A stretch of 64,000 nucleotides of DNA from the IMG/VR virus record IMGVR_UViG_2939521961_000011. One strand, given 5' to 3'. Under the pieces are notes generated by a model. The model searched no databases, was not told where the DNA came from, and saw nothing but the letters and a program-made list of their open reading frames with translations. The position numbers and the translations under genes were made by a program. Below are positions 14,481 through 54,111 of this stretch, one piece after another. Every line of letters starts with the position of its first letter. The stretch's first letter is position 1. This stretch comes from a virus. Taxonomy: Duplodnaviria > Heunggongvirae > Uroviricota > Caudoviricetes.

Positions 14481-14538
14481 TTTCTGGTGACGTTTGGCGG
14501 TATCAGTTTTACTCCGTGGCTGCTCTGCCGCCCTTTTT
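14481..14538 (+). ncRNA. dicF: DicF small RNA
   Basis: Matches DicF as recalled (TTTCTGGTGACGTTTGGCGGTATCAGTTTTACTCC...CTGCTCTGCCGCCCTTTTT); followed by a conserved long-range inverted repeat at 14543-14557 / 14669-14683. Confidence 0.8.
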
Positions 14539-36956: not shown

Positions 36957-37289
36957 TTAAACGATGCTGATTGCCGTTCCGGCAAACGCGGTCCGTTTTT
37001 TCGTCTCGTCGCTGGCAGCCTCCGGCCAGAGCACATCCTCATAACGGAATGTGCCGGACTTGTAGAACGTCAGCGTGGTGCTGGTCTGGTCAGCAGCAAC
37101 CGCAAGAATGCCAACGGCAGCACCGTCGGTGGTGCCATCCCACGCAACCAGCTTACGGCTGGAGGTGTCCAGCATCAGCGGGGTCATTGCAGGCGCTTTC
37201 GCACTCAATCCGCCGGGCGCGGTTGCGGTATGAGCCGGGTCACTGTTGCCCAGCGGCTGGTAATGGGTAAAGGTTTCTTTGCTCGTCAT
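36957..37289 (-). CDS. D: capsid decoration protein D
   Basis: Starts [12 protein letters not shown]..., as lambda gpD. Confidence 0.9.
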
Positions 37290-37298
37290 AAACATCCC

Positions 37299-38598
37299 TT
37301 ACACTGGTGTGTTCAGCAAATCGTTAACGGCATCAGATGCCGGGTTACCTGCAGCCAGCGGTGCCGGTGCCCCCTGCATCAGACGATCCAGCGCAGTATC
37401 ACTGCGCGCCTGTGCACTCTGTGGTGCTGCGGCCAGAATGCGGCGGGCCGTTTCCACGGTCATACCGGGGGTTTCTGCCAGCACGCGGGCCTGTTCTTCG
37501 CGTCCGTGAGCCTCCTCACAGTTGAGGATCCCCATAATGCGGCTGTTTTCTGCCGCAACCGCAGCGGTGATCTGCGCGTTCACGTCCGGCTGCGCCGCGC
37601 TGGCGTTTTCGCCCTCCGTCGCTGGCACCACGCCAGTAACGTCAGCCTGCGAAGCAGTGGCTGAAACAGTTGTTGATTGAGTCTCTTTGGTCATTCGCCC
37701 TCCTGAGAGACGGGATTTACGTGCATCCAGTGCATCACGCATAACGGTGATCGCATCGGTGCTGTTGACAAGTTCATCAGCCAGTCCGGCATCAATGGCC
37801 TCCTGACCGCTGTACACTGCAGCCTCGGTATCCAGCACAGCCTGCACGGACAGGCCGGTATATGCCGACACCTTCTGCGCAAACATCCGGCGGGTTGCAT
37901 CCATCCGGGACTGCAGTGTTTCCCGGACATCACCCGGTAGATGGCTGTAGGGGTTGCCATCCACCTTATGGCTGCCGCTGTAAATCAGCGTGATTTCCAC
38001 GCCCTGTTTCTCCAGGGCAGCACCGTAATTACTGTGAGCCATCATGACGCCGATGGAGCCTGTCCGGGCGGTCTGCGTGACCAGACGCCGGGAGGCGGCG
38101 CTGGCAAGCAGCTGACCTGCACTGCAGTTCATGTCGTTGGCCAGCGCCCATACCGGTTTTATGTCTCGCACACGGGCGATGATGTCAGCACAGTCAAATG
38201 CTCCCGCCACCATCCCGCCCGGTGTGTCCATATCCAGCAGAATGCCGTCCACCATCGGATCGCTGGCAGCCTGTTGCAGACGGGCGATAATGCCGTTGTA
38301 ACCGGTCATTCCCGAATACGGCTGCAGCGCCCGCGTCCGGCTGACCAGCGTACCGGACACCGGCAGCACGGCGATGCCGTTCATGACCTGATAACTCCGG
38401 GCCTGTCGTGGTCCGTCATCATCACCGGATAACGCCAGCGCCGCGGGTGCCTCTCCGGCAGTCAGGCTGTCGCCGGATACTGCATCCGTCAGGCGGCTGA
38501 TCCCAAGCTGGCCTGCAAGCGCACAAAAGAAAACCCGCGCATAGGCGGGTTCAAGCATCAGCGGCTCATTAAAAGCCATGCTGGCAATATGCGGGAGA

Positions 38599-38618
<20 letters not shown>
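37299..38618 (-). CDS. C: head protease/scaffold C (Nu3 scaffold nested in the same frame)
   Basis: GTG start with GGAGGAG RBS, overlaps the end of B; ClpP-like protease motifs. Confidence 0.85.
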
Positions 38619-42299
<3,681 letters not shown>

Positions 42300-42325
<26 letters not shown>

Positions 42326-42845
42326 TCAGCAACCCCGGTATCAGTTCATCCAGCGCGGCTGCTTTGTTCATGGCTTTGATAATATCCCGTTTCAGGAAAT
42401 CAACATGTCGGTTTTCCAGTTCCGGAAAACGCCGCTGTACTGAGAGAGGGATCCCGTCAAGAATACTGGCAATTTCACCTGCGATCCGTGACAGCACGAA
42501 AGTACAGAATGCGGTTTCCACCACTTCTGCGGAGTCTCTGGCATTCTTCAGCTCCTGGGCGTCAGCCTGCGCACGCGTAAGTCGATGGCGTTCGTACTCA
42601 ATAGTCCCAGGCTGGAGATCTGCCTCGCTGGCAGCCCTGTAATCCTCAACCTCTTTACGGAGTTTTTCATTTTCGATATCAGCTTCCCTCTGCGCATACC
42701 ACTGAATTGCCGTGGCGGTATCAAATACAGATTCAACGCCCTTACCACCTCCGGAGACGCAAGGGAGCCCCTGAGACTGCCAGCGTTCAATCGTTCGCGG
42801 ATCCACGTTGAAAATTTCGGCAAGTTTCTTTTTATTAACCTTCAT
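42300..42845 (-). CDS. Nu1: terminase small subunit Nu1
   Basis: 181 aa with N-terminal HTH, as lambda Nu1. Confidence 0.9.
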
Positions 42846-43019
42846 GAAACAGTCTCACAACAAATACAGGATCCGACATGAAAGTGCCCGAAAATGACTT
42901 TTTCAGGCGTTTTCATGTCGGACCTTTACGGATTCGATATTAGAAAAAACAAATAGTTATGTTCGAGAAGTACCGACATGATTTTCCCCGGAAAATTTTC
43001 ATAAATAGCGAAAACCCGC

Positions 43020-43031
43020 GAGGTCGCCGCC
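43020..43031. other. cos site (cosN 12-nt cohesive end; cosB region toward Nu1)
   Basis: Reverse complement of the lambda left end GGGCGGCGACCTCGCGGGTTTTCGC... found at 42988-43032. Confidence 0.85.
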
Positions 43032-43231
43032 CCGTAACCTGTCGGATCGCCGGAAAGGACCCGCAAAATGATAATAATTATCATCTACATGTCACAACGT
43101 GCATCTACGCCATCAAACCACGTCAAATAATCAATTATGACGCAGGTATCGTATTAATTGATCTGCGTCAACTTAACGTAAAAACAACTTCAGACAATAC
43201 AAATCAGCGACACTGAATACGGGGCAACCTC

Positions 43232-43456
43232 ATGTCAACGAAGAACAGAACCCGCAGAACAACAACCCGCAACATCCGCTTTCCTAACCAAATGATTGAA
43301 CAAATTAACATCGCTCTTGACCTGAAAGGTTCAGGTAATTTTTCAGCGTGGGTTATTGAAGCCTGCAGAAGAAGATTAATTAATGAAAAATATTCTCAAT
43401 TTGTACCCAACAAAGACAAACACGACCAGAGCACCTGTTCAGACAGGTTTACTTAA
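43232..43456 (+). CDS. lambda right-end small ORF homolog
   Basis: 74-aa product MSTKNRTRRTTTRNIRFPNQMIEQINIAL..., matching the ORF adjacent to cos in lambda. Confidence 0.6.
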   Translation: MSTKNRTRRTTTRNIRFPNQMIEQINIALDLKGSGNFSAWVIEACRRRLINEKYSQFVPNKDKHDQSTCSDRFT

Positions 43457-43537
43457 ACGACTTATATATGACACAAAAAGCGACCACTAAAGTCGCTTTT
43501 TCTTATGGTAACAGGCAATAACTCTCTCAGATATTTT

Positions 43538-43852
43538 TTAGCATTTTTTTGACCGCGCGTTTCCGGACGTATTCTGTTCTCCTGTCCCTTTATATCGTCG
43601 GAATACCCGCCGCTCTTCAAATCCCATTCCCAACTCAGAATGTAGTCTGTTGACCGCTTGTTTTATTTCGGTCAGGTTCACCGGTGAAACCGGAGTCCGG
43701 CGCGCCTTACGCAAACACTCTGCTCGTTTCTGTGCCGCCACTTTTCTTTTCTGGTCATCACTTAGCTGTACCATCACTTTTGCCCATCGTTCAGCTGCTC
43801 TCCGGTACAGTCCTTTTTTCTCCAGACATTCTGCCACGTGATCATGTAGCAT
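43538..43852 (-). CDS. PerC-family (Pch-like) transcriptional activator
   Basis: 104 aa with KGLYRRAAERW motif characteristic of PerC/Pch proteins; AT-rich upstream region. Confidence 0.6.
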   Translation of the reverse strand: MLHDHVAECLEKKGLYRRAAERWAKVMVQLSDDQKRKVAAQKRAECLRKARRTPVSPVNLTEIKQAVNRLHSELGMGFEERRVFRRYKGTGEQNTSGNARSKKC

Positions 43853-44317
43853 AAGTGACCTCCGATTATCTACAGACTGCCATCCTGAATTTACCTTCCC
43901 TTAATGAAATAACAATAAAAAACAAACCACGCAAAAACAATAAAACAACACACAAAAAAAACTAAATAATAAACAAAAATAATCACCTTATTTTATTATT
44001 TTTTGAGGGAGCAATTACTGAACAAAAAACGCTGACTATATACTCAAAACCAAACAACTATTCTGCCAATCAGGTATCATGGCAACACACGGAATTACCG
44101 TGTTTTTGCCTTCTCTGCCCATACAATACGGGCATATACTTCATTCTCTATTGTAATATTTCTATCCATGTGCCCCACTCCATTTACCTGTAAATAATAT
44201 TCAAAATATTTATCACAGAAATCGTTTTTGGCCATGAACTGAGCACACTATAAAGTCCGGAACTGACTCTTTGTTAAATTACCTTAACGTTACCAGTAAC
44301 ACCTTCATAACAAAACA

Positions 44318-44785
44318 TCACGGTATACACTGGGTACGGATATATTCCTGTGCTCCTTCCAGTTGCTTCTGCATTGCCATCAGCCGTTCTCTGAGGATGA
44401 AATAATCCCGTTCAGCGGCTTCTGCCAGTCGGGGACCGGTTGCATTATCCACGCCGGAGGTGATGGGGGCTTTACGCAAGGAGCCTGGACAGTTGGCGTT
44501 GATGCGCAGGCGCTTACGACCAGCGGCAACATCAGCACGCAGAGTTTCATTTTCAGCTCTCGCATCGGCTAATTCCCTCGAGTATCTGGCATCAAGTGCA
44601 GCGACATCACGCTGGCGTATCTGCATATCAGTAATTGTCGCGTTCGCCAGCTCCAGCTCACTGGCTTTTTTATCGCGCTGCTCTTTGTAGATGATGGCGT
44701 GATCACGGTAATGATTCAGCCCCAGACTAAGCGCACCACAGGCCACCAGCAGGACAATGATAACCACGCACAGAACACGGTTCAT
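44318..44785 (-). CDS. Rz: i-spanin Rz
   Basis: N-terminal TM anchor plus coiled coil; Rz1 embedded in the +1 frame. Confidence 0.85.
   Translation of the reverse strand: MNRVLCVVIIVLLVACGALSLGLNHYRDHAIIYKEQRDKKASELELANATITDMQIRQRDVAALDARYSRELADARAENETLRADVAAGRKRLRINANCPGSLRKAPITSGVDNATGPRLAEAAERDYFILRERLMAMQKQLEGAQEYIRTQCIP
44380..44565 (-). CDS. Rz1: o-spanin Rz1 (lipoprotein) embedded in Rz
   Basis: Lipobox LPLVVSAC and proline-rich PPSPPAW tract, as lambda Rz1. Confidence 0.8.
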   Translation of the reverse strand: MRELKMKLCVLMLPLVVSACASTPTVQAPCVKPPSPPAWIMQPVPDWQKPLNGIISSSENG

Positions 44786-45116
44786 ATCACCACCAACGGA
44801 TTGCCCAGACCAGAACAGCAATGGCCACAATACGAATGGCAAAAGCTGCCGCTCTTGTTAAATCCAGACTGGCGTCTCCACTTCAATGCCTTTCATAATG
44901 GACAACCTCAGAAAGAATCTTTTATACTTCCTCACAGGGAAAGTACCTCCCTACCCATAATTTCTCCCTTGCCTTACTCAAGGTCAGAAAACACAAAACC
45001 CCGCTTGCTGCCAACAAACGGGTTTTTTACTTTTATTCACTTAGGTTTTACCAGTTTTCAGGATTTCGTGTTATCCACCCGCGTTGGCCAACGTCATTTT
45101 TCAGGAAAATATTCTG

Positions 45117-45650
45117 CTATCTGTCGATGTCCCAGCACGCCAGCGCGCTCTCCTGGTCACGCCGTGAGACCTGACCGTAGCAATTATTTGAACGGATACG
45201 GCAGTCTCTGCCACCGTCCTTAATCCACCAGCGAATCGCCTCACAGGCACCTTTTCGATCGCCTGCATTAATTCGTTTATAAAACGTCGACGGGAAGCAC
45301 TTACCGGGGCCAATGTTGTACGGACAGAATGACGCGATCCCCGCTTTCTGGGGTTCGGTCAGCGGCACCCGGATGTTTTTCTCCACCCATGCCAGCGCCT
45401 TATCACGTTCAATAGCGTTAACCTGGTCGCATTTTTCCTTCGTCAGTTTCATGCCAGGAATAACAGGCTTACCATCCACCCGGGTGGCTCCACGGCAGAT
45501 GGTCCAGATACCCGCACCATCACGGTATGCCGTGGTGTGGTTACCTTCCTTTTCATCCAGAAACTGGTCGAGGATTTCAGGCGCAGACGCCCCTGCACCA
45601 ATCAGCGCCAGAACGGCAGCCGACAGGCCGTATTTGATTTTTGCGTTCAT
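45117..45650 (-). CDS. R: SAR endolysin R (T4-lysozyme fold with N-terminal signal-anchor-release segment)
   Basis: Hydrophobic Gly/Ala-rich N-terminus, lysozyme catalytic region, phage 21-type. Confidence 0.85.
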   Translation of the reverse strand: MNAKIKYGLSAAVLALIGAGASAPEILDQFLDEKEGNHTTAYRDGAGIWTICRGATRVDGKPVIPGMKLTKEKCDQVNAIERDKALAWVEKNIRVPLTEPQKAGIASFCPYNIGPGKCFPSTFYKRINAGDRKGACEAIRWWIKDGGRDCRIRSNNCYGQVSRRDQESALACWDIDR

Positions 45651-45780
45651 GGATATTTATCAGGATTTATCGGTTCCGAATCCCTGGATATGTTAAGCCT
45701 TCACCCCACCAGTGGTGGGCACTGGCGGGTTCTTAATTTCCCCGGATGATCGTGGATTACATTCCACCAGGAGATTACTT

Positions 45781-46413
45781 ATGCTTATCTATCCAGCGGC
45801 AGACCTCCGTTTACAGGGACGCAGAGCACAACCATGGGATAAAACAACCACTCATAAATATCGTCCCGGTCAATATTATGACTTTCGTAAACACCCGGAA
45901 CTGATCGAGACACACCTTGAGGATTTTGTTGAATATTCAGACAGACAAGCGATTCAGACCTTTTTTTCTTTTGTTAAGTGGATCAACAGCAATTCATCTG
46001 CATTCGAGAGCACGGACTGCATGTTTTCAGGAACACCAAAGGTTGATGAATACGCCCCGGTATTTGGTTGCACCCATGCGTCATCTGGCCGCTTCGAATT
46101 TTTGTTTCGCGATACGAAAATAAACCAAAATGAGCGAGCTGTCGGATGGGTACTTAACAAACTATCGCTCTACCTTCAGAAAGAACGGCCCGATTTTTGT
46201 AAAGGAACCTTTGGCATCGTTCCCCTCATGACGGAATATACCGACTCCGGCGGTAACGAGTTCACCGGTTATCGTATTTGTGTCTATTTCGATGCTTACG
46301 GGAATGGAACAGAGGATACCTGGACTTCTCTCAACATCATGTTTGATGGCCTCATGAAAGCCACCAAAAGAATGAGCAATGAAACAATCACTGGCGAGAT
46401 GCGTCCCCTTTAA
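45781..46413 (+). CDS. hypothetical 210-aa protein, antisense to the lysis operon
   Basis: GGAG RBS before ATG; AT-rich; overlaps the 3' end of the convergent 263-aa ORF by ~250 bp; no family recognized. Confidence 0.4.
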   Translation: MLIYPAADLRLQGRRAQPWDKTTTHKYRPGQYYDFRKHPELIETHLEDFVEYSDRQAIQTFFSFVKWINSNSSAFESTDCMFSGTPKVDEYAPVFGCTHASSGRFEFLFRDTKINQNERAVGWVLNKLSLYLQKERPDFCKGTFGIVPLMTEYTDSGGNEFTGYRICVYFDAYGNGTEDTWTSLNIMFDGLMKATKRMSNETITGEMRPL

Positions 46414-46953
46414 AAAATTATCCAGAATCTCACTATTTGCAGAGCGCTCTCTGTTTTTTTGAATACGGAAACACTCTGCGAGATTTCTGCTCATCACTTT
46501 CCGGCAATAATCGTAAAACGCCGCGAACTGCTCATCACGGCGTTTTTTTTCACCTTCGGAAGGGATCTGCACCGACAGTTTTTTATTCAGTTCAACGACG
46601 CTGTTCTCCAGTTTTTCAATGCGTGATTCGATATCATCTTTTTCTGACTGTATCGTGTTATATGCATTGTTAATTTGTATGGTATACCGCTCTTCTGAAC
46701 AGAGGCGCTTTTCCGGCAACGGTTCGTTCCCTTCACATAACCCGGCAGCAATATCCATGAAAAACTGCTTCGCCTTCTTTTTCGCCTCAGCTTCGTAAAA
46801 CTCCAGCGGGGCACCTTCAACACGATCAAGATCAATCACCACATTTGGCAACAACAGTGACGTATACCCACCAGTTTCCAGCGCCACAGTAACAGTAATC
46901 TTATCCGGGTAAATATTTATCCCTTTAACAACCAGTTCGTATTGTTTATTCAT
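46162..46953 (-). CDS. hypothetical 263-aa protein translationally coupled to the holin
   Basis: ATG 3 nt after holin stop with GGGGAG RBS; coiled-coil-like centre; no family recognized. Confidence 0.5.
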   Translation of the reverse strand: MNKQYELVVKGINIYPDKITVTVALETGGYTSLLLPNVVIDLDRVEGAPLEFYEAEAKKKAKQFFMDIAAGLCEGNEPLPEKRLCSEERYTIQINNAYNTIQSEKDDIESRIEKLENSVVELNKKLSVQIPSEGEKKRRDEQFAAFYDYCRKVMSRNLAECFRIQKNRERSANSEILDNFLKGTHLASDCFIAHSFGGFHEAIKHDVERSPGILCSIPVSIEIDTNTITGELVTAGVGIFRHEGNDAKGSFTKIGPFFLKVER

Positions 46954-46956
46954 CGT

Positions 46957-47163
46957 CTACTCTCCCCGCGCCGCCTTACGACGGTCCTCTCTGATTTTGA
47001 AATACAGGTTAGTAAGATACGTCAGCAGGCCAAACAGCAGACTCCCCAGCACACCTATCGCCACCCACTGGGACGGAGAGACTTTGTCCAGCAGCTGCAG
47101 TAACCAGTATCCCGTCCCCACCGCTGACGTGGTGTATGACACACCTGTTGTGATTTTTTCCAT
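46957..47163 (-). CDS. S: holin S (phage 21-type pinholin)
   Basis: 68 aa, two TM segments, charged C-terminus [13 protein letters not shown]. Confidence 0.85.
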
Positions 47164-47340
47164 CTGATGTATGTCTCCGTCACCGCCGACAGAAAATGAA
47201 AGTAAAGAAAAACAAAAAAGCCGCCAGTGTCACCCACTGACGGCCAACGCCGGGAGCCGTGATTATGGCATTCAGGCTCTGCTAAAAATGCCAGATAACA
47301 TTCCGGCCTCCCCTGATTCAGGTTATAAATGACACAATAT

Positions 47341-47460
47341 CTTGACAACATCCGTCACTGTCTGTCAGAAAATGTACTGCCATATAGAAGCAACATGTGA
47401 AGTACATCTATCCTTTTGAGCCAGCACCTCTCCACCGAAAGTCAGTGCTGGCTGTTTTTT
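47341..47460 (+). ncRNA. candidate small RNA unit A (TTGACA -35-like element plus terminator)
   Basis: TTGACA at 47341, hairpin AGCCAGCAC...GTGCTGGCT followed by T7 at 47419-47460; no convincing -10. Confidence 0.35.
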
Positions 47461-47508
47461 TCCTTAATAAGGCATCTGTAACTGAAACAATCCGCATATT
47501 GATAATAT

Positions 47509-47608
47509 ATTGACAGGCATCATTGCTGTCTGTGAAAAATAAGTCTCTACAAACATATAAGGCCTTTTAGCCAGCGTCTTCTTTTTCAGGTCAGTCGCTG
47601 GCTTTTTT
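47509..47608 (+). ncRNA. candidate small RNA unit B, paralog of unit A
   Basis: TTGACA at 47509, conserved TGTCTGT...AAAAT box, hairpin GCCAGCG...CGCTGGC followed by T7 at 47565-47608. Confidence 0.35.
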
Positions 47609-47610
47609 TA

Positions 47611-49461
47611 TTATGCTGCCGGTGCATTTATCTCCAGCATCAGACTTTCTATCTCAACGCCATACGCTGCATTTTTTGTAACATCCGTCAGCGTCAGCGC
47701 ATTCAGTCCCAGTGTCAGACTGTCTTTTATAACCTGGAATGCCGGGCCAGCCACTCCATTCAGTTTCGGAGTAACCGTGGCACTGCCGGCGGTGAACACC
47801 AGCTCCAGCGTCTGCCAGTCGTTACCGTAATCGCCGAACTCCCCCAGCTTCGTGTTTCCGGCTTTCCTGTGATGCATCAGATTCACTCTGCCGTCAGTGG
47901 TCTGAGTGAAGTACGACATCAGGAACGGATTACCGGTACCCGTCATCGCCACACCATCAGGAACGGGAGCATCTGTATACAGATAAATCCCCAGCCCGAA
48001 CTGATTGTTGGTCAGTGCGCCTGACAGGCGGAACTTACAGGTCAGTCTGCCGCCCTGTGTCAGCAGGGTAATTGCGTCATCCACCGGATGCGTCAGGGAC
48101 CAGGTTTTATTGCTCTGCTTGGTGATCTTAAATACACCATCTGACAACTGAATTCCGCCATCCTTAATGCTCCAGCCCTGCGCAGCAGCCTCTCCGGCTG
48201 CCGGCAGCAGGGAGATTGTGCGAACGGACGTATCTGCAGACGGACCCGATGGCGTGTTGCCGCCGGGCGAGGGTTTGATTTCCGGTGCCTTACCACTGAT
48301 GAAGGCGGAGGTGCGCCCGGCTGCGTTCAGAATAGCGGTTGCCAGACGATCCGGAATAATGCTCCTGCGCGCCCATGAACTGAAATGTGTCGGGCGGTTT
48401 GATGATACCTGGTTTCCATTCGTTCTCGATGCCGCACCGTAATATCCTGATGCCGGAATATCCGGATCTTCTGCCGGCGCGTTAGTGGCGGTATTGACAC
48501 CGTTACCGTCTGTCATGAAGGGCACAAAATAAACGCCCTCACTCTCCCTGTTTTTATACCCGCCGTACACGGTGTCGTACTGGGTAGCGTATGTATTTTT
48601 CCAGTAATACGTCGTGTCACCACAAATCCACGGCACATCTGCAGCACTGCCACCATGGCACTGCGCGTTAAACACGGAGAGGTCAGCACGAAACTGTGTC
48701 AGCATGGCTGTAAACAGCGCAGGTTGCTGTGCGTGGGTGGCGGCGCTCATGTCAAACTCTCCCTGCATCCAGCACACCGCCAGCAACACATTTTTCGGGT
48801 TCTTCTGTAATGCAGCTTTAGTGCGCGCAATCAGGTCCTGATATAACGGTTTACCCACACCCCAGCGTGCCGAATCCTGGCTGGCCCCCGTGTCCGCACT
48901 GAATGTCCCCTCCGCGCCCTGGGTGAATGCCGAACCACCACGACAGCATGGTACCAGCAGGATCCCCGCGTTATTCGGGATATACGGGAGCAGTTTTTTG
49001 GCAATATGTAACCCCTGGCCGACACAGCCGTACTGCCCTTTGCTCAGGTCTGCCTTCGGATGATTCAGCGTACTCATATCCTGCACATCATGCAGGCAGT
49101 GGTCGGCCGGAATAATATCGTTATATCTGCAGGCAGCCCCACCCGGCGTCACTGTACTGCGGCGCGCCAGCTGTTTAATGCGCGGATCCGGAGCATCGTA
49201 TGAATCCGGCAGCGGAAGCCCTTCACCGTAAGCCATGGCATTGGACTGCCCGGCCAGTACGATGACGTAGTACCACTCCGGCTCAGTTGCACCACTGACC
49301 ACCACATCACCTTCTGCTGTAATCGCCTGCATCAGGGTATAAGGGGTTATGGCCACCGGACTCCCAAACGGCTGCCAGCCCTCTTTCAGTTTGTGTGTCA
49401 GCTTTTCCGCAAGGTCTGACGGCGACGCCGCCCTGACAACATCATAATGTTTAAATGTCAT
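47611..49461 (-). CDS. nanS-p: NanS-p-like 9-O-acetyl sialate esterase (DUF1737 N-terminus plus SGNH/SASA esterase), intact
   Basis: 616 aa; GQSNAMAYG motif; position between Q and S as in Stx-type phages. Confidence 0.75.
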   Translation of the reverse strand: MTFKHYDVVRAASPSDLAEKLTHKLKEGWQPFGSPVAITPYTLMQAITAEGDVVVSGATEPEWYYVIVLAGQSNAMAYGEGLPLPDSYDAPDPRIKQLARRSTVTPGGAACRYNDIIPADHCLHDVQDMSTLNHPKADLSKGQYGCVGQGLHIAKKLLPYIPNNAGILLVPCCRGGSAFTQGAEGTFSADTGASQDSARWGVGKPLYQDLIARTKAALQKNPKNVLLAVCWMQGEFDMSAATHAQQPALFTAMLTQFRADLSVFNAQCHGGSAADVPWICGDTTYYWKNTYATQYDTVYGGYKNRESEGVYFVPFMTDGNGVNTATNAPAEDPDIPASGYYGAASRTNGNQVSSNRPTHFSSWARRSIIPDRLATAILNAAGRTSAFISGKAPEIKPSPGGNTPSGPSADTSVRTISLLPAAGEAAAQGWSIKDGGIQLSDGVFKITKQSNKTWSLTHPVDDAITLLTQGGRLTCKFRLSGALTNNQFGLGIYLYTDAPVPDGVAMTGTGNPFLMSYFTQTTDGRVNLMHHRKAGNTKLGEFGDYGNDWQTLELVFTAGSATVTPKLNGVAGPAFQVIKDSLTLGLNALTLTDVTKNAAYGVEIESLMLEINAPAA

Positions 49462-50031
49462 TATTCCTCCCGGCCGGGATAGTGTATTAAATCAGATATG
49501 GAGTGGGCTGTAGTCCGGAAGCCTGAATGACACACGGGGACTACAGCCCAAGAAATGAAAAAAGGCCACGCAGTTGCGCAGCCTGATAAACCCTGGTTAA
49601 AATCCACACGATAACAACACAACAATATCAGTATCTCATGCTATTGCCCGAACCCATTCGGGCATTTTTTACCCATAAAAAAGCCCCTCCGGAGAGGGGC
49701 ATGTTTGCATGCACATTCTTTTTCTTGCATGGTGCCGGGTGCCTCCCGGTGAATTCAGTATCAGCACCTGAATCCGCGATTATCACATATACCTGGTTGC
49801 TGATTGCCCCTCCGCACAGGGGGATTCACCATGCAGTAGTATTTTTAATAAACAGTAAACAAAAAAATCAAGCATTATGCAGGCTGTTTCTTTTTATCAC
49901 CGGCCACAGCAATACCACAATGCCGCAGACCAGCACCCCATCCGCCAGCACCGACATGATTCTGCTGGTGAAATCCACCATCACCACCAGAAACAGCAGG
50001 AGTGCAGCCACAGCCAGGCGCAGTTTTACCG

Positions 50032-53745: not shown

Positions 53746-53901
53746 TTACTTCTCAGATTCGTAGTCTACGAAGACAGCGACCTCCGTCTGACCGGTTCGG
53801 ATTCGCACCTCGCAGAGGTCTTTCCTCGTTACCAGTGCCGTCACTATGACGGTTAAACAGATGACGATCAGGGCGATTAACATCGCCTTTTGCTGCTTCA
53901 T
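53746..53901 (-). CDS. hok: Hok/Gef-family type I toxin, second copy (mok-like frame to 53958)
   Basis: 51 aa, same architecture as 7679-7834 with a divergent C-terminal tail. Confidence 0.8.
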   Translation of the reverse strand: MKQQKAMLIALIVICLTVIVTALVTRKDLCEVRIRTGQTEVAVFVDYESEK

Positions 53902-54111
53902 AGCCTGCTTCTCCTTGCCTTTCGGCACGTAAGAGGCTAACCTACATGTGTTCAGCATGGATTGAGCCTCAGATTAATGTTAAGCGTCTTGCAGGACGCG
54001 TAATGTTAACTGGGGCTTTTCTCTATCTGCCGTTGGTGTTCATGCCCGAGGCAGATAGCCTCAAGCACCCGCTGCAATTCTACTTAACTATCCTTTTCCC
54101 GCAAACCGTTT

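What the first reader, a model, noticed from the sequence alone, without database searches (positions are those of the whole stretch)
43538..44317. PerC/Pch-like regulator beside cos, preceded by an A/C-rich low-complexity tract
The 104-aa protein carries the KGLYRRAAERW signature of PerC-family activators of the LEE regulator ler. It sits where lambda has bor and right-end ORFs. The ~470 bp upstream is very AT-rich with an A/C-rich low-complexity run (43905-43990), which is typical of H-NS-silenced virulence promoters.
Basis: partly seen in the sequence, partly recalled or inferred. Interest (0 to 1): 0.45.

Follow-up and report, generated by a model that had tools for sequence, protein, structure and literature searches.

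The report
Known virulence regulator gene pchA
This is an exact copy of pchA, the well-studied prophage-borne switch that turns on the attaching-and-effacing virulence island of enterohaemorrhagic E. coli, together with its usual upstream region, so it is real but already known.

Summary
A 104-aa ORF (43538-43852, minus strand) matches Pfam PerC at E=3.8e-44. Over the CDS and all 465 bp upstream it is base-for-base identical to pchA (ECs1091) of E. coli O157:H7 Sakai. It lies between Rz and cosN, where a lambda-like phage carries bor.

The A/C-rich run (T/G-rich on the gene's strand) is the most compositionally extreme 86 bp of the 64-kb window.

The whole 780-bp module is at least 99% identical in 658 records, from 673 of 5426 complete E. 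coli genomes, with a median of three copies per genome. It is therefore a known gene in its known place.

The H-NS idea is plausible but untested. The DNA is AT-rich and rich in TpA steps, but its A-tracts are not phased, and I found no H-NS occupancy data for pch.

Two small additions:
- The tract is the variation hot spot of the module: about 75% identity among copies, against 96-97% in the flanks.
- It contains a poly-T run that varies from T6 to T9 among otherwise near-identical alleles.

An AlphaFold model of Pch resembles a short TPR-like helical module rather than a helix-turn-helix.

Novelty: already known. Interest: low.

The parts
43538..43852 (-). pch coding sequence, 104 aa; pchA allele of the group 1 Pch / PerC family
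   Evidence: ORF list. Pfam PerC E=3.8e-44. Identical in every aligned column to Sakai pchA ECs_1091. RefSeq WP_001303878.1, 'PerC family transcriptional regulator'. Substitutions among 5 copies are 10 synonymous to 9 non-synonymous in frame, against 5:15 and 3:17 out of frame.
43784..43816 (-). codons for KGLYRRAAERW (residues 13-23), the invariant core of the family
   Evidence: In an alignment of 43 family members R17, A19, A20 and W23 are invariant. A7, L10, E11, G14, R18, R22, C46 and G75 are at least 90% conserved.
43859..43863 (-). Shine-Dalgarno GGAGG, 6 nt before the ATG
   Evidence: Read directly from the sequence. Conserved in all copies aligned, including E. albertii.
   Evidence: Composition. 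Mean pairwise identity among 5 copies is 0.76, against 0.96 further upstream and 0.97 in the CDS. T is about 65% and C at most 3% in 4 of the 5 copies.
43954..43961 (-). poly-T run (A8 on the plus strand), -102 to -109 from the ATG, variable in length between alleles
   Evidence: T7, T8 and T9 occur among complete genomes. In 59 IMG/VR prophage contigs the counts are T8 x44, T7 x12, T6 x3.
44011..44317 (-). conserved far-upstream part of the module, from the Rz stop to the variable zone; function unassigned
   Evidence: Mean identity 96% among pchA, pchB, pchC, strain A25 and O121 copies. No similarity to lambda-like phages. No Rfam family.
44057..44085 (-). only sigma-70-like site found on the gene's strand (TTGCCA-17-AATAGT); a candidate promoter, unverified
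   Evidence: Consensus scan. Two sites were found in the region against 3.3 expected from shuffles, so this is not evidence on its own.
44081..44110 (.). stable hairpin with an 11-bp interrupted stem; function unknown
   Evidence: RNA fold -16.7 kcal/mol, z=-5.4 on the minus strand; -14.8 kcal/mol, z=-4.6 on the plus strand. No U-run follows it on the minus strand. The stem is broken in the pchC and A25 copies.
44095..44235 (-). 46-aa ORF, probably not a gene
   Evidence: Matches phrog_2157. Its only relatives are at least 83% identical, all from Escherichia, and of inconsistent length. Substitutions are 2 synonymous to 8 non-synonymous in every frame. Not annotated in RefSeq.
43475..43501 (.). 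bidirectional intrinsic terminator (A5-GCGAC-loop-GTCGC-T5) between the convergent pch and ylcI-like genes
   Evidence: Fold -14.7 kcal/mol (z=-3.4) on the minus strand and -11.9 kcal/mol (z=-2.8) on the plus strand. Identical in pchA, pchB and pchC.
43232..43456 (+). YlcI/YnfO-family gene (DUF3950), part of the lambdoid right-end backbone
   Evidence: Pfam DUF3950 E=1.8e-18. NCBIfam YlcI_YnfO_N. 95.7% identical to phage 2G7b over 43033-43379.
43020..43032 (.). cosN core
   Evidence: Exact match to the reverse complement of GGGCGGCGACCTC.
44318..44842 (-). Rz spanin, with embedded Rz1 at 44380-44565; the last late lysis gene upstream of pch
   Evidence: Pfam Phage_lysis E=4e-46. ORF list. RefSeq 'lysis protein'.
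14482..14533 (+). DicF sRNA copy in the neighbouring prophage; published trans-activator of pchA translation
   Evidence: Rfam RF00039, 75 bits against a gathering score of 48. Mechanism taken from the literature (PMC7769764, PMC9438474).

Best explanation
This is a pchA allele: a moron cassette of about 0.96 kb in a lambdoid prophage, placed between the lysis genes and cos in the slot where lambda-like phages carry bor.

Shown here: the gene's identity, its family membership, its position, and its wide multi-copy distribution in attaching-and-effacing E. coli.

Taken from the literature: the 104-aa Pch protein binds at the LEE1 (ler) promoter and other horizontally acquired loci. It loosens the H-NS/StpA/Hha silencing complex so that Ler, and through it the type III secretion island, is expressed. 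Its own expression responds to LrhA, Lrp/butyrate/LeuO, ppGpp-DksA and the NtrC/sigma-S pathway. Translation of pchA is held off by pairing between the SD and an anti-SD in the coding region, which the prophage sRNA DicF relieves at low oxygen.

Inferred: the gene has two routes of expression. One is its own promoter somewhere in the AT-rich upstream DNA. The other is read-through from the phage late operon, because pch is co-oriented with holin-lysozyme-Rz and no terminator was found between them.

The T/G-rich tract is the fast-evolving part of the regulatory region. I think it most likely acts as AT-rich promoter-proximal or leader spacer DNA whose sequence differs between the paralogous copies and sets their different outputs. 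Whether H-NS binds it is open.
For: - Family: Pfam PerC E=3.8e-44; 47% identity to PerC of pMAR7, E=1e-27.
- Identity: every aligned column from the Rz end through the CDS is identical to Sakai pchA. pchB and pchC differ by V6L and mainly in the tract.
- Context: Sakai pchA, pchB and pchC sit in the same Rz-pch-(ylcI)-terminase context in prophages Sp4, Sp11 and Sp14.
- Distribution: the 780-bp module is at least 99% identical in 658 records, from 673 of 5426 genomes, median 3 copies, including O157, O26, O111, O145 and O121.
- Slot: it replaces the bor segment of a lambda-like phage.
- Terminators: a terminator lies downstream of pch. None was predicted on the minus strand between Rz and pch.
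- Mechanism of Pch: PMC4764244.
- Regulation: LrhA, Lrp, LeuO (PMC4456613); ppGpp/DksA and about 3.2-fold induction at entry to stationary phase (PMC2241611); NtrC/sigma-S (PMC10714755).
- DicF and anti-SD: PMC7769764, PMC9438474, PMC7873438. In my fold of -60 to +315 the SD region pairs with +93 to +99 of the CDS. The window's own DicF can pair across +47 to +105.
- Tract: it is the variation hot spot of the module.
Against: - Nothing functional was tested here.
- The source strain is not identified. No complete genome covers 38000-62000 beyond 87%, so the presence of a LEE island in the same genome is assumed, not shown.
- The transcription start is unknown. The only sigma-70-like site on the gene's strand is no better than chance.
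- The DicF-pch duplex energy is not exceptional: z=-1.9 against shuffles, and 11% of natural 375-nt windows do as well. The DicF step therefore rests on the literature alone.
- The partner predicted for the SD changes with the length of RNA folded.
Confidence: 0.93

Rival explanations
1. One reading: the AT-rich tract is an H-NS nucleation and silencing site, so pch itself is silenced by H-NS until an anti-silencer or an environmental cue relieves it.
For: GC is 21% in the tract and 33% over the 465 bp, against 51% for the window. TpA density is 2.3 times the window's. Predicted curvature is above average in the tract (20-28 degrees against a mean of 12.7) and peaks at 36.6 degrees at 44188, the 99.8th percentile. 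H-NS generally coats AT-rich horizontally acquired DNA in EHEC (PMC4764244).
Against: The A-tracts are spaced 15.5, 8.5, 14 and 19.5 bp apart, so they are not in helical phase. The only H-NS-motif-like site within 2 mismatches is at 44271, outside the tract. The curvature parameters were recalled from memory. No paper I could reach reports H-NS occupancy or an hns effect at pch. The tract sequence is poorly conserved between copies, which speaks against a specific site, although a purely compositional target would tolerate that.
Confidence: 0.35
2. The tract is transcribed. Transcription would start upstream, for example near 44050 from the TTGCCA-17-AATAGT site, and the tract would form a long U/G-rich 5' leader that acts at the RNA level through Hfq or other U-rich binders, stability or translation.
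For: The only sigma-70-like site on the gene's strand lies upstream of the tract, in the conserved zone. Reviews speak of a pchA 'leader region' structure (PMC7873438). U-rich composition is kept in 4 of 5 copies while the sequence drifts.
Against: That promoter match is at chance level. No Rfam family matches. The leader folds only weakly with the rest of the mRNA, and the structure changes with the fragment chosen. No transcription start data were accessible.
Confidence: 0.3
3. The tract has no function. It would be a slippage-prone low-complexity spacer left at the junction of the cassette and drifting neutrally.
For: Divergence is highest here. The homopolymer varies in length from T6 to T9, and mosaic alleles occur.
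Against: The strong strand-specific composition is retained in pchA, pchB, pchC and O121 copies, and a T-rich stretch also precedes the SD in the otherwise unrelated upstream regions of the E. albertii and Escherichia sp. homologues. Published work reports different regulation of pchA and pchB by LrhA (title of Honda et al. 2009, as cited in PMC4456613), and this tract is where the two copies differ most.
Confidence: 0.25
4. The 465 bp upstream is not all regulatory: the 46-aa ORF at 44095-44235 would be a separate small gene co-transferred with pch.
For: The ORF is open in all five copies compared. It matches PHROG family phrog_2157 over its full length, E=2.7e-37.
Against: It has no relatives below 83% identity and none outside Escherichia, and the called lengths range from 25 to 59 aa. 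Substitutions are 2 synonymous to 8 non-synonymous in all three frames, so there is no frame-specific constraint. It has no Pfam or NCBIfam match and is not annotated in RefSeq.
Confidence: 0.1

Closest known systems
PchA (ECs1091) of E. coli O157:H7 Sakai prophage Sp4; group 1 Pch (PchA/B/C)
   Same: The nucleotide sequence is identical over the CDS and the whole upstream region back to Rz. It is the same 104-aa protein and has the same downstream terminator. It has the same neighbours (Rz upstream, ylcI-like gene and cos/terminase downstream) as pchB in Sp11 and pchC in Sp14.
   Different: It sits in a different prophage backbone and host strain. In Sakai Sp4 the segment is inverted and cut off by IS629 about 165 bp past the stop codon, whereas here the prophage right end is intact. 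One base differs 15 nt after the stop codon.
PerC of the EPEC EAF plasmid pMAR7 (perABC operon)
   Same: Same Pfam family. Identity is 47% over 87 residues, with the KG(L/F)YRRAA(E/D)RWA core shared. According to the literature both activate the LEE1/ler promoter (PMC4764244, PMC4456613).
   Different: PerC has 89 aa, is plasmid-borne, and is the third gene of an operon driven by PerA. Pch is a stand-alone prophage gene with its own upstream region. According to PMC4764244, LEE expression in EHEC depends on Pch, whereas in EPEC it needs PerC only under particular conditions.
bor moron of phage lambda and relatives
   Same: It occupies the same slot between Rz and the ylcI-like gene and cos. 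Both are accessory genes that benefit the lysogen rather than the phage.
   Different: There is no sequence similarity. In phage 2G7b, bor is transcribed against the late operon, whereas pch is transcribed with it. Bor is an outer-membrane lipoprotein, and Pch is a cytoplasmic regulator.
TPR-type helical repeat modules (fold resemblance only)

Membership tests
PerC family (Pfam PF06069) | Significant full-length match to the family profile, above the curated cut-off | tested here: met
   149.3 bits against a cut-off of 22.6, E=3.8e-44, residues 1-89 on profile positions 1-89 of 90.
PerC family (Pfam PF06069) | Conserved N-terminal core (G14, R17, R18, A19, A20, R22, W23) plus C46 and G75 | tested here: met
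   All are present in the window protein. In the 42-43-sequence alignment R17, A19, A20 and W23 are invariant and the rest at least 90% conserved.
PerC family (Pfam PF06069) | Recognisable similarity to the founding member, PerC of the EPEC EAF plasmid | tested here: met
   BLASTP gives 47% identity over 87 residues, E=1e-27, to the perC product of pMAR7, which lies next to perA and perB.
Group 1 Pch (PchA/B/C) of EHEC | 104-aa protein nearly identical to Sakai PchA, PchB and PchC | tested here: met
   100% identical to PchA. It differs from PchB by one residue (V6L) and from PchC by two (V6L, V58M).
Group 1 Pch (PchA/B/C) of EHEC | Carried on a lambdoid prophage between the lysis cassette and cos/terminase | tested here: met
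   Rz 44318-44842, pch, cosN 43020-43032 and terminase 40400-42845, all in one orientation. Sakai Sp11 and Sp14 have the same layout.
Group 1 Pch (PchA/B/C) of EHEC | Activates the LEE1/ler promoter and is needed for LEE expression and adherence | not testable with these tools
   Known for the identical Sakai protein from the literature (PMC4764244, PMC4456613). Neither a LEE island nor expression can be examined from this window.
Group 1 Pch (PchA/B/C) of EHEC | Translational control by an SD:anti-SD structure relieved by DicF pairing in the CDS | tested here: inconclusive
   The SD pairs with +93 to +99 in one fold, but with other partners when other fragment lengths are folded. A DicF duplex is possible at +47 to +105, but its energy is ordinary (z=-1.9; 11% of natural windows match it). 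The mRNA sequence is identical to the pchA that was studied, so the published result should carry over.
H-NS-silenced horizontally acquired promoter | AT-rich DNA relative to the genome | tested here: met
   GC is 33% over 465 bp and 21% in the tract, against 51% for the window.
H-NS-silenced horizontally acquired promoter | Intrinsic curvature or high-affinity H-NS motif near the promoter | tested here: inconclusive
   Curvature is moderate in the tract, with one strong peak at 44188. The A-tracts are not phased, and the only motif-like site is at 44271. The model parameters were recalled from memory.
H-NS-silenced horizontally acquired promoter | H-NS occupancy in vivo and derepression in hns/stpA mutants | not testable with these tools
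   No such data for pch were found in the papers I could reach.

The most novel reading that the evidence does not exclude
The T-rich tract would be a hypermutable tuning element for a master virulence regulator. Slippage in the T6-T9 run and mosaic exchange within the tract would alter promoter spacing or leader properties. Paralogous pch copies and different strains would then deliver different amounts of Pch, in the manner of a contingency locus, which would explain the copy-specific regulation reported for pchA and pchB.
Probability: 0.12. Interest if true: 0.45.

Novelty: already known. Interest (0 to 1): 0.12.

Why it matters
Pch is the prophage-encoded trigger for the LEE type III secretion system, so recognising it correctly matters for annotating virulence potential. 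RefSeq labels it only 'PerC family transcriptional regulator'.

Nothing here changes what is known about it. The minor points that might repay an experiment are:
- the regulatory tract, not the protein, is what differs between the paralogous copies;
- the tract holds a length-variable homopolymer;
- the protein's predicted fold looks like a TPR-type protein-interaction module rather than a classical DNA-binding domain. Its anti-silencing mechanism is still described as incompletely understood.

Tried and rejected
- **Rfam:** a search of the whole window and a permissive search of 42900-44500 found no RNA family in the pch region.
- **46-aa upstream ORF:** examined as a possible gene and set aside.
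- **DicF-pch pairing:** the predicted duplex looked striking at -48.9 kcal/mol, but controls showed it is not exceptional. I do not count it as evidence.
- **Curvature and H-NS motif scan:** inconclusive.
- **Phage collection:** it holds only two unannotated fragments of the module, so no free-phage context could be obtained.
- **Source strain:** I first took the window to be E. coli O26:H11 11368 because 43200-44400 is 100% identical to it. Later comparison showed collinearity only over about 37200-49454, at 99.76%, and no complete genome covers the neighbourhood fully. The O26 annotation tables therefore do not describe this window and were not used.
- **Papers not held:** the primary papers on the pchA promoter and leader (Honda 2009, Melson and Kendall 2019, Abe 2008) are not in the library. 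A search for transcription-start data returned nothing relevant.
- **Related loci:** a genome-contig scan with the single protein returned only two close relatives.
- **Structure searches:** the afdb50 fold library was unavailable. A profile search of PDB sequences gave no meaningful hit.

Full report
**Observation**

- A 104-aa ORF runs from 43852 to 43538 on the minus strand. Residues 13-23 read KGLYRRAAERW.
- It matches Pfam PerC (PF06069) over the whole profile: 149.3 bits against a cut-off of 22.6, E=3.8e-44.
- The cosN core GAGGTCGCCGCCC lies at 43020-43032.
- The terminase subunits (42300-42845 and 40400-42325) follow on the same strand. Rz (44318-44842, Pfam Phage_lysis E=4e-46) precedes the ORF.
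- The gap between the Rz stop and the ATG is 465 bp at 33% GC, in a window that averages 51% GC.
- The run 43905-43990 is 66% A, 19% C, 2% G and 13% T.
- The most A+C-rich 86-nt window (0.86) and the lowest-GC 86-nt window (0.186) of the whole 64 kb both fall in this tract. The tract is therefore not a chance fluctuation.
- Because the gene is on the minus strand, the tract reads T/G-rich in the direction of transcription.

**What it is**

I fetched the three pch loci of E. coli O157:H7 Sakai and aligned them with the window.
- The window is identical to pchA (ECs_1091) in every aligned column, from inside Rz through the upstream region and the coding sequence. The first difference is one base 15 nt after the stop codon.
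- The alignment with pchA ends only where IS629 truncates the Sakai copy.
- PchB differs from the window protein by V6L, and PchC by V6L and V58M.
- RefSeq names the product WP_001303878.1, 'PerC family transcriptional regulator'.
- Against the founding member, PerC of the EPEC plasmid pMAR7 (third gene after perA and perB), identity is 47% over 87 residues, E=1e-27. The KG(L/F)YRRAA(E/D)RWA core is shared.
- An exhaustive HMMER search of 1.84 billion representative proteins found only 82 clusters at E<=0.001, so the family is small.
- In an alignment of 42-43 members, R17, A19, A20 and W23 are invariant. A7, L10, E11, G14, R18, R22, C46 and G75 are at least 90% conserved.

**Distribution and slot**

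- The 780-bp module (gene plus upstream DNA) covers at least 80% of the query in 688 records from 673 of 5426 complete E. coli genomes. It is at least 99% identical in 658 of those records, with a median of three copies per genome.
- The genomes include O157:H7, O26, O111, O145 and O121.
- The module is nearly absent from the deposited phage collection, which holds two unannotated fragments.
- Compared with lambda-like phage 2G7b, homology runs from cos to window 43379 (inside the YlcI/YnfO-family gene, 95.7%) and resumes at 44340 in Rz (82.9%).
- The 960 bp between these points replace 753 bp that hold bor. The statement that pch sits where lambda has bor is correct.
- A bidirectional terminator, A5-GCGAC-loop-GTCGC-T5 at 43475-43501, separates pch from the convergent ylcI-like gene.

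**Source of the window**

- The 1.2 kb around pch is 100% identical to O26:H11 strain 11368 and many other strains.
- The window is collinear with that genome only over about 37200-49454, at 99.76%.
- No complete genome covers 38000-62000 beyond 87%.
- The source strain is therefore unidentified. The presence of a LEE island in it is assumed, not shown.

**How it works**

The function comes from the literature on the identical Sakai protein.
- Pch binds at the LEE1 (ler) promoter and many other horizontally acquired loci. It reduces H-NS/StpA/Hha occupancy and so de-silences ler. It also helps Ler at other LEE promoters. It does not co-precipitate with H-NS or bind Ler (PMC4764244).
- pch expression is reported to respond to LrhA, to butyrate through Lrp and LeuO (PMC4456613), to ppGpp/DksA (PMC2241611) and to NtrC/sigma-S (PMC10714755). 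pchA, pchB and pchC each rise about 3.2-3.4-fold at entry to stationary phase (PMC2241611).
- Translation of pchA is blocked by pairing between the SD and an anti-SD in the coding region. The sRNA DicF opens this structure under low oxygen (PMC7769764, PMC9438474, PMC7873438).

My own RNA analysis gave only weak support for the DicF step.
- In a fold of -60 to +315, the SD region pairs with AAGUGAUGACC at about +93 to +99. The partner changes with the fragment folded.
- The window carries its own DicF copy at 14482-14533. It can pair across +47 to +105 at -48.9 kcal/mol.
- That energy is ordinary: z=-1.9 against shuffles, and 11% of natural 375-nt windows do as well.
- I therefore rely on the publications for this step, not on my computation.

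One inference of my own concerns read-through.
- pch has the same orientation as the late genes.
- No terminator was predicted between Rz and pch on that strand.
- Group 1 pch genes are reported as enhanced by the SOS response (PMC6265319).
- Read-through from the late operon is therefore a likely second route of expression.

**The tract**

- Among five copies (window/pchA, pchB, pchC, monkey strain A25, O121), mean pairwise identity is 0.96 for 44011-44330, 0.76 for 43875-44010 and 0.97 for the coding sequence. The tract zone is the variation hot spot of an otherwise tightly conserved module.
- The composition is retained in four of the five copies: T about 65% and C at most 3% on the sense strand.
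- In the E. albertii and Escherichia sp. homologues the upstream regions are otherwise unrelated, yet a T-rich stretch still precedes the SD.
- Within pchA-type alleles the only indel is in the poly-T run at 43954-43961. T7, T8 and T9 occur in complete genomes. In 59 IMG/VR prophage contigs the counts are T8 x44, T7 x12 and T6 x3. Mosaic alleles join a pchA-like half of the tract to a pchC-like half.
- Homopolymer sequencing error cannot be excluded for the length differences.

**H-NS**

- The DNA is AT-rich and has 2.3 times the window's TpA density.
- The A-tracts are spaced 15.5, 8.5, 14 and 19.5 bp apart, so they are not in helical phase.
- A wedge-model estimate, with parameters recalled from memory, gives moderate curvature in the tract (20-28 degrees against a mean of 12.7, sd 6.9). 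One strong peak lies further upstream at 44188.
- The only site within two mismatches of the H-NS high-affinity motif is at 44271.
- I found no report of H-NS occupancy or an hns effect at pch.
- The transcription start is unknown to me. The only sigma-70-like site on the gene's strand (44085-44057) is no better than chance.
- The H-NS idea is thus plausible on composition alone and remains untested.

**Other features of the upstream DNA**

- The 46-aa ORF at 44095-44235 matches phrog_2157. Its relatives are all at least 83% identical, all from Escherichia, and of inconsistent length. Substitutions are 2 synonymous to 8 non-synonymous in every frame. I do not regard it as a gene.
- A stable hairpin at 44081-44110 (z=-5.4) has no following U-run on the gene's strand. 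It is disrupted in two of the copies. Its role is unknown.
- No Rfam family matches the region.

**Protein fold**

- An AlphaFold2 model built from 42 family members has mean pLDDT 80.6, with values of 90-96 over residues 1-50. It shows four helices: 5-13, 16-29, 33-50 and 60-73.
- In my reading, the conserved G14-x-Y16-x-x-A19-x-x-x-W23-x-x-V26 spacing resembles the TPR B-helix pattern.
- This is a resemblance worth noting, not a classification. No helix-turn-helix is apparent.

**Verdict**

- The finding is real and correctly identified, and it is already known. It is pchA with its native regulatory region, in the standard prophage slot.
- The H-NS interpretation of the tract is unproven.
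- The only new observations are modest: the tract is the fast-evolving part of the module, it holds a length-variable homopolymer, and the predicted fold is TPR-like.

Noticed in passing
window 14482-14533 (+): A DicF sRNA copy (Rfam RF00039, 75 bits) lies in the neighbouring prophage of the same window. DicF is the published translational activator of pchA, so regulator and target are about 29 kb apart on adjacent prophages.
   Followed up: partly
window 49609-49670 (+) and 49671-49860 (-): An AgvB anti-GcvB sRNA (RF02702, 96.5 bits) lies back-to-back with an STnc100 match (147.8 bits), in the same prophage as pch and upstream of the lysis genes. A second STnc100 copy is at 744-913 (-).
   Followed up: no
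window 7829-8003 (-), 53896-54070 (-), 8712-8796 (-), 8822-8896 (-), 3553-3799 (-): Rfam also reports two sok antitoxin RNAs, a C4 antisense RNA, an isrK match just above threshold, and three tRNA genes. Window 1-1545 also repeats DNA that in E. coli O26:H11 11368 lies just beyond the stretch collinear with 37200-49454. This suggests two lambdoid prophages in tandem, in the same orientation.
   Followed up: no
window 43954-43961: The poly-T run on the pch sense strand (A8 on the plus strand) varies from T6 to T9 among otherwise near-identical pchA-type alleles: T8 x44, T7 x12 and T6 x3 in IMG/VR contigs, and T7-T9 in complete genomes. This could be slippage or homopolymer sequencing error.
   Followed up: partly
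L041 10570-10680 and L061 940-1050 (IMG/VR contigs): These are mosaic tract alleles. The 5' half is like pchA and the 3' half like pchC (CTGTGATTTATT), which suggests recombination between paralogous pch copies inside the tract.
   Followed up: no
window 44081-44110: A very stable hairpin (-16.7 kcal/mol, z=-5.4) sits at the end of the 46-aa ORF, with the ORF's stop codon in its loop. No U-run follows on the gene's strand. The stem is broken in the pchC and A25 copies. Its function is unknown.
   Followed up: partly
[not shown]
   Followed up: partly
window 43380-43456 (3' end of the ylcI-like gene): Homology to the lambda-like phage 2G7b ends at 43379, inside the YlcI/YnfO-family gene. The C-terminal 25 or so residues of this 74-aa protein therefore belong to the pch cassette rather than to the phage backbone. 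The 2G7b homologue is 64 aa.
   Followed up: no
L002 17131-18203 (Sakai Sp4): In Sakai, the lysis-pchA segment of Sp4 is inverted relative to the rest of the prophage and abuts IS629. The reference pchA therefore sits in a rearranged, probably defective prophage, whereas the copy in this window has an intact right end.
   Followed up: no
P0036 (7614 aa) and P0070 (768 aa), hits: Two long proteins carry several stretches matching the central part of Pch: 7 stretches in the first, 5 in the second. This hints at PerC-like repeats in large proteins. It may also be low-complexity noise.
   Followed up: no
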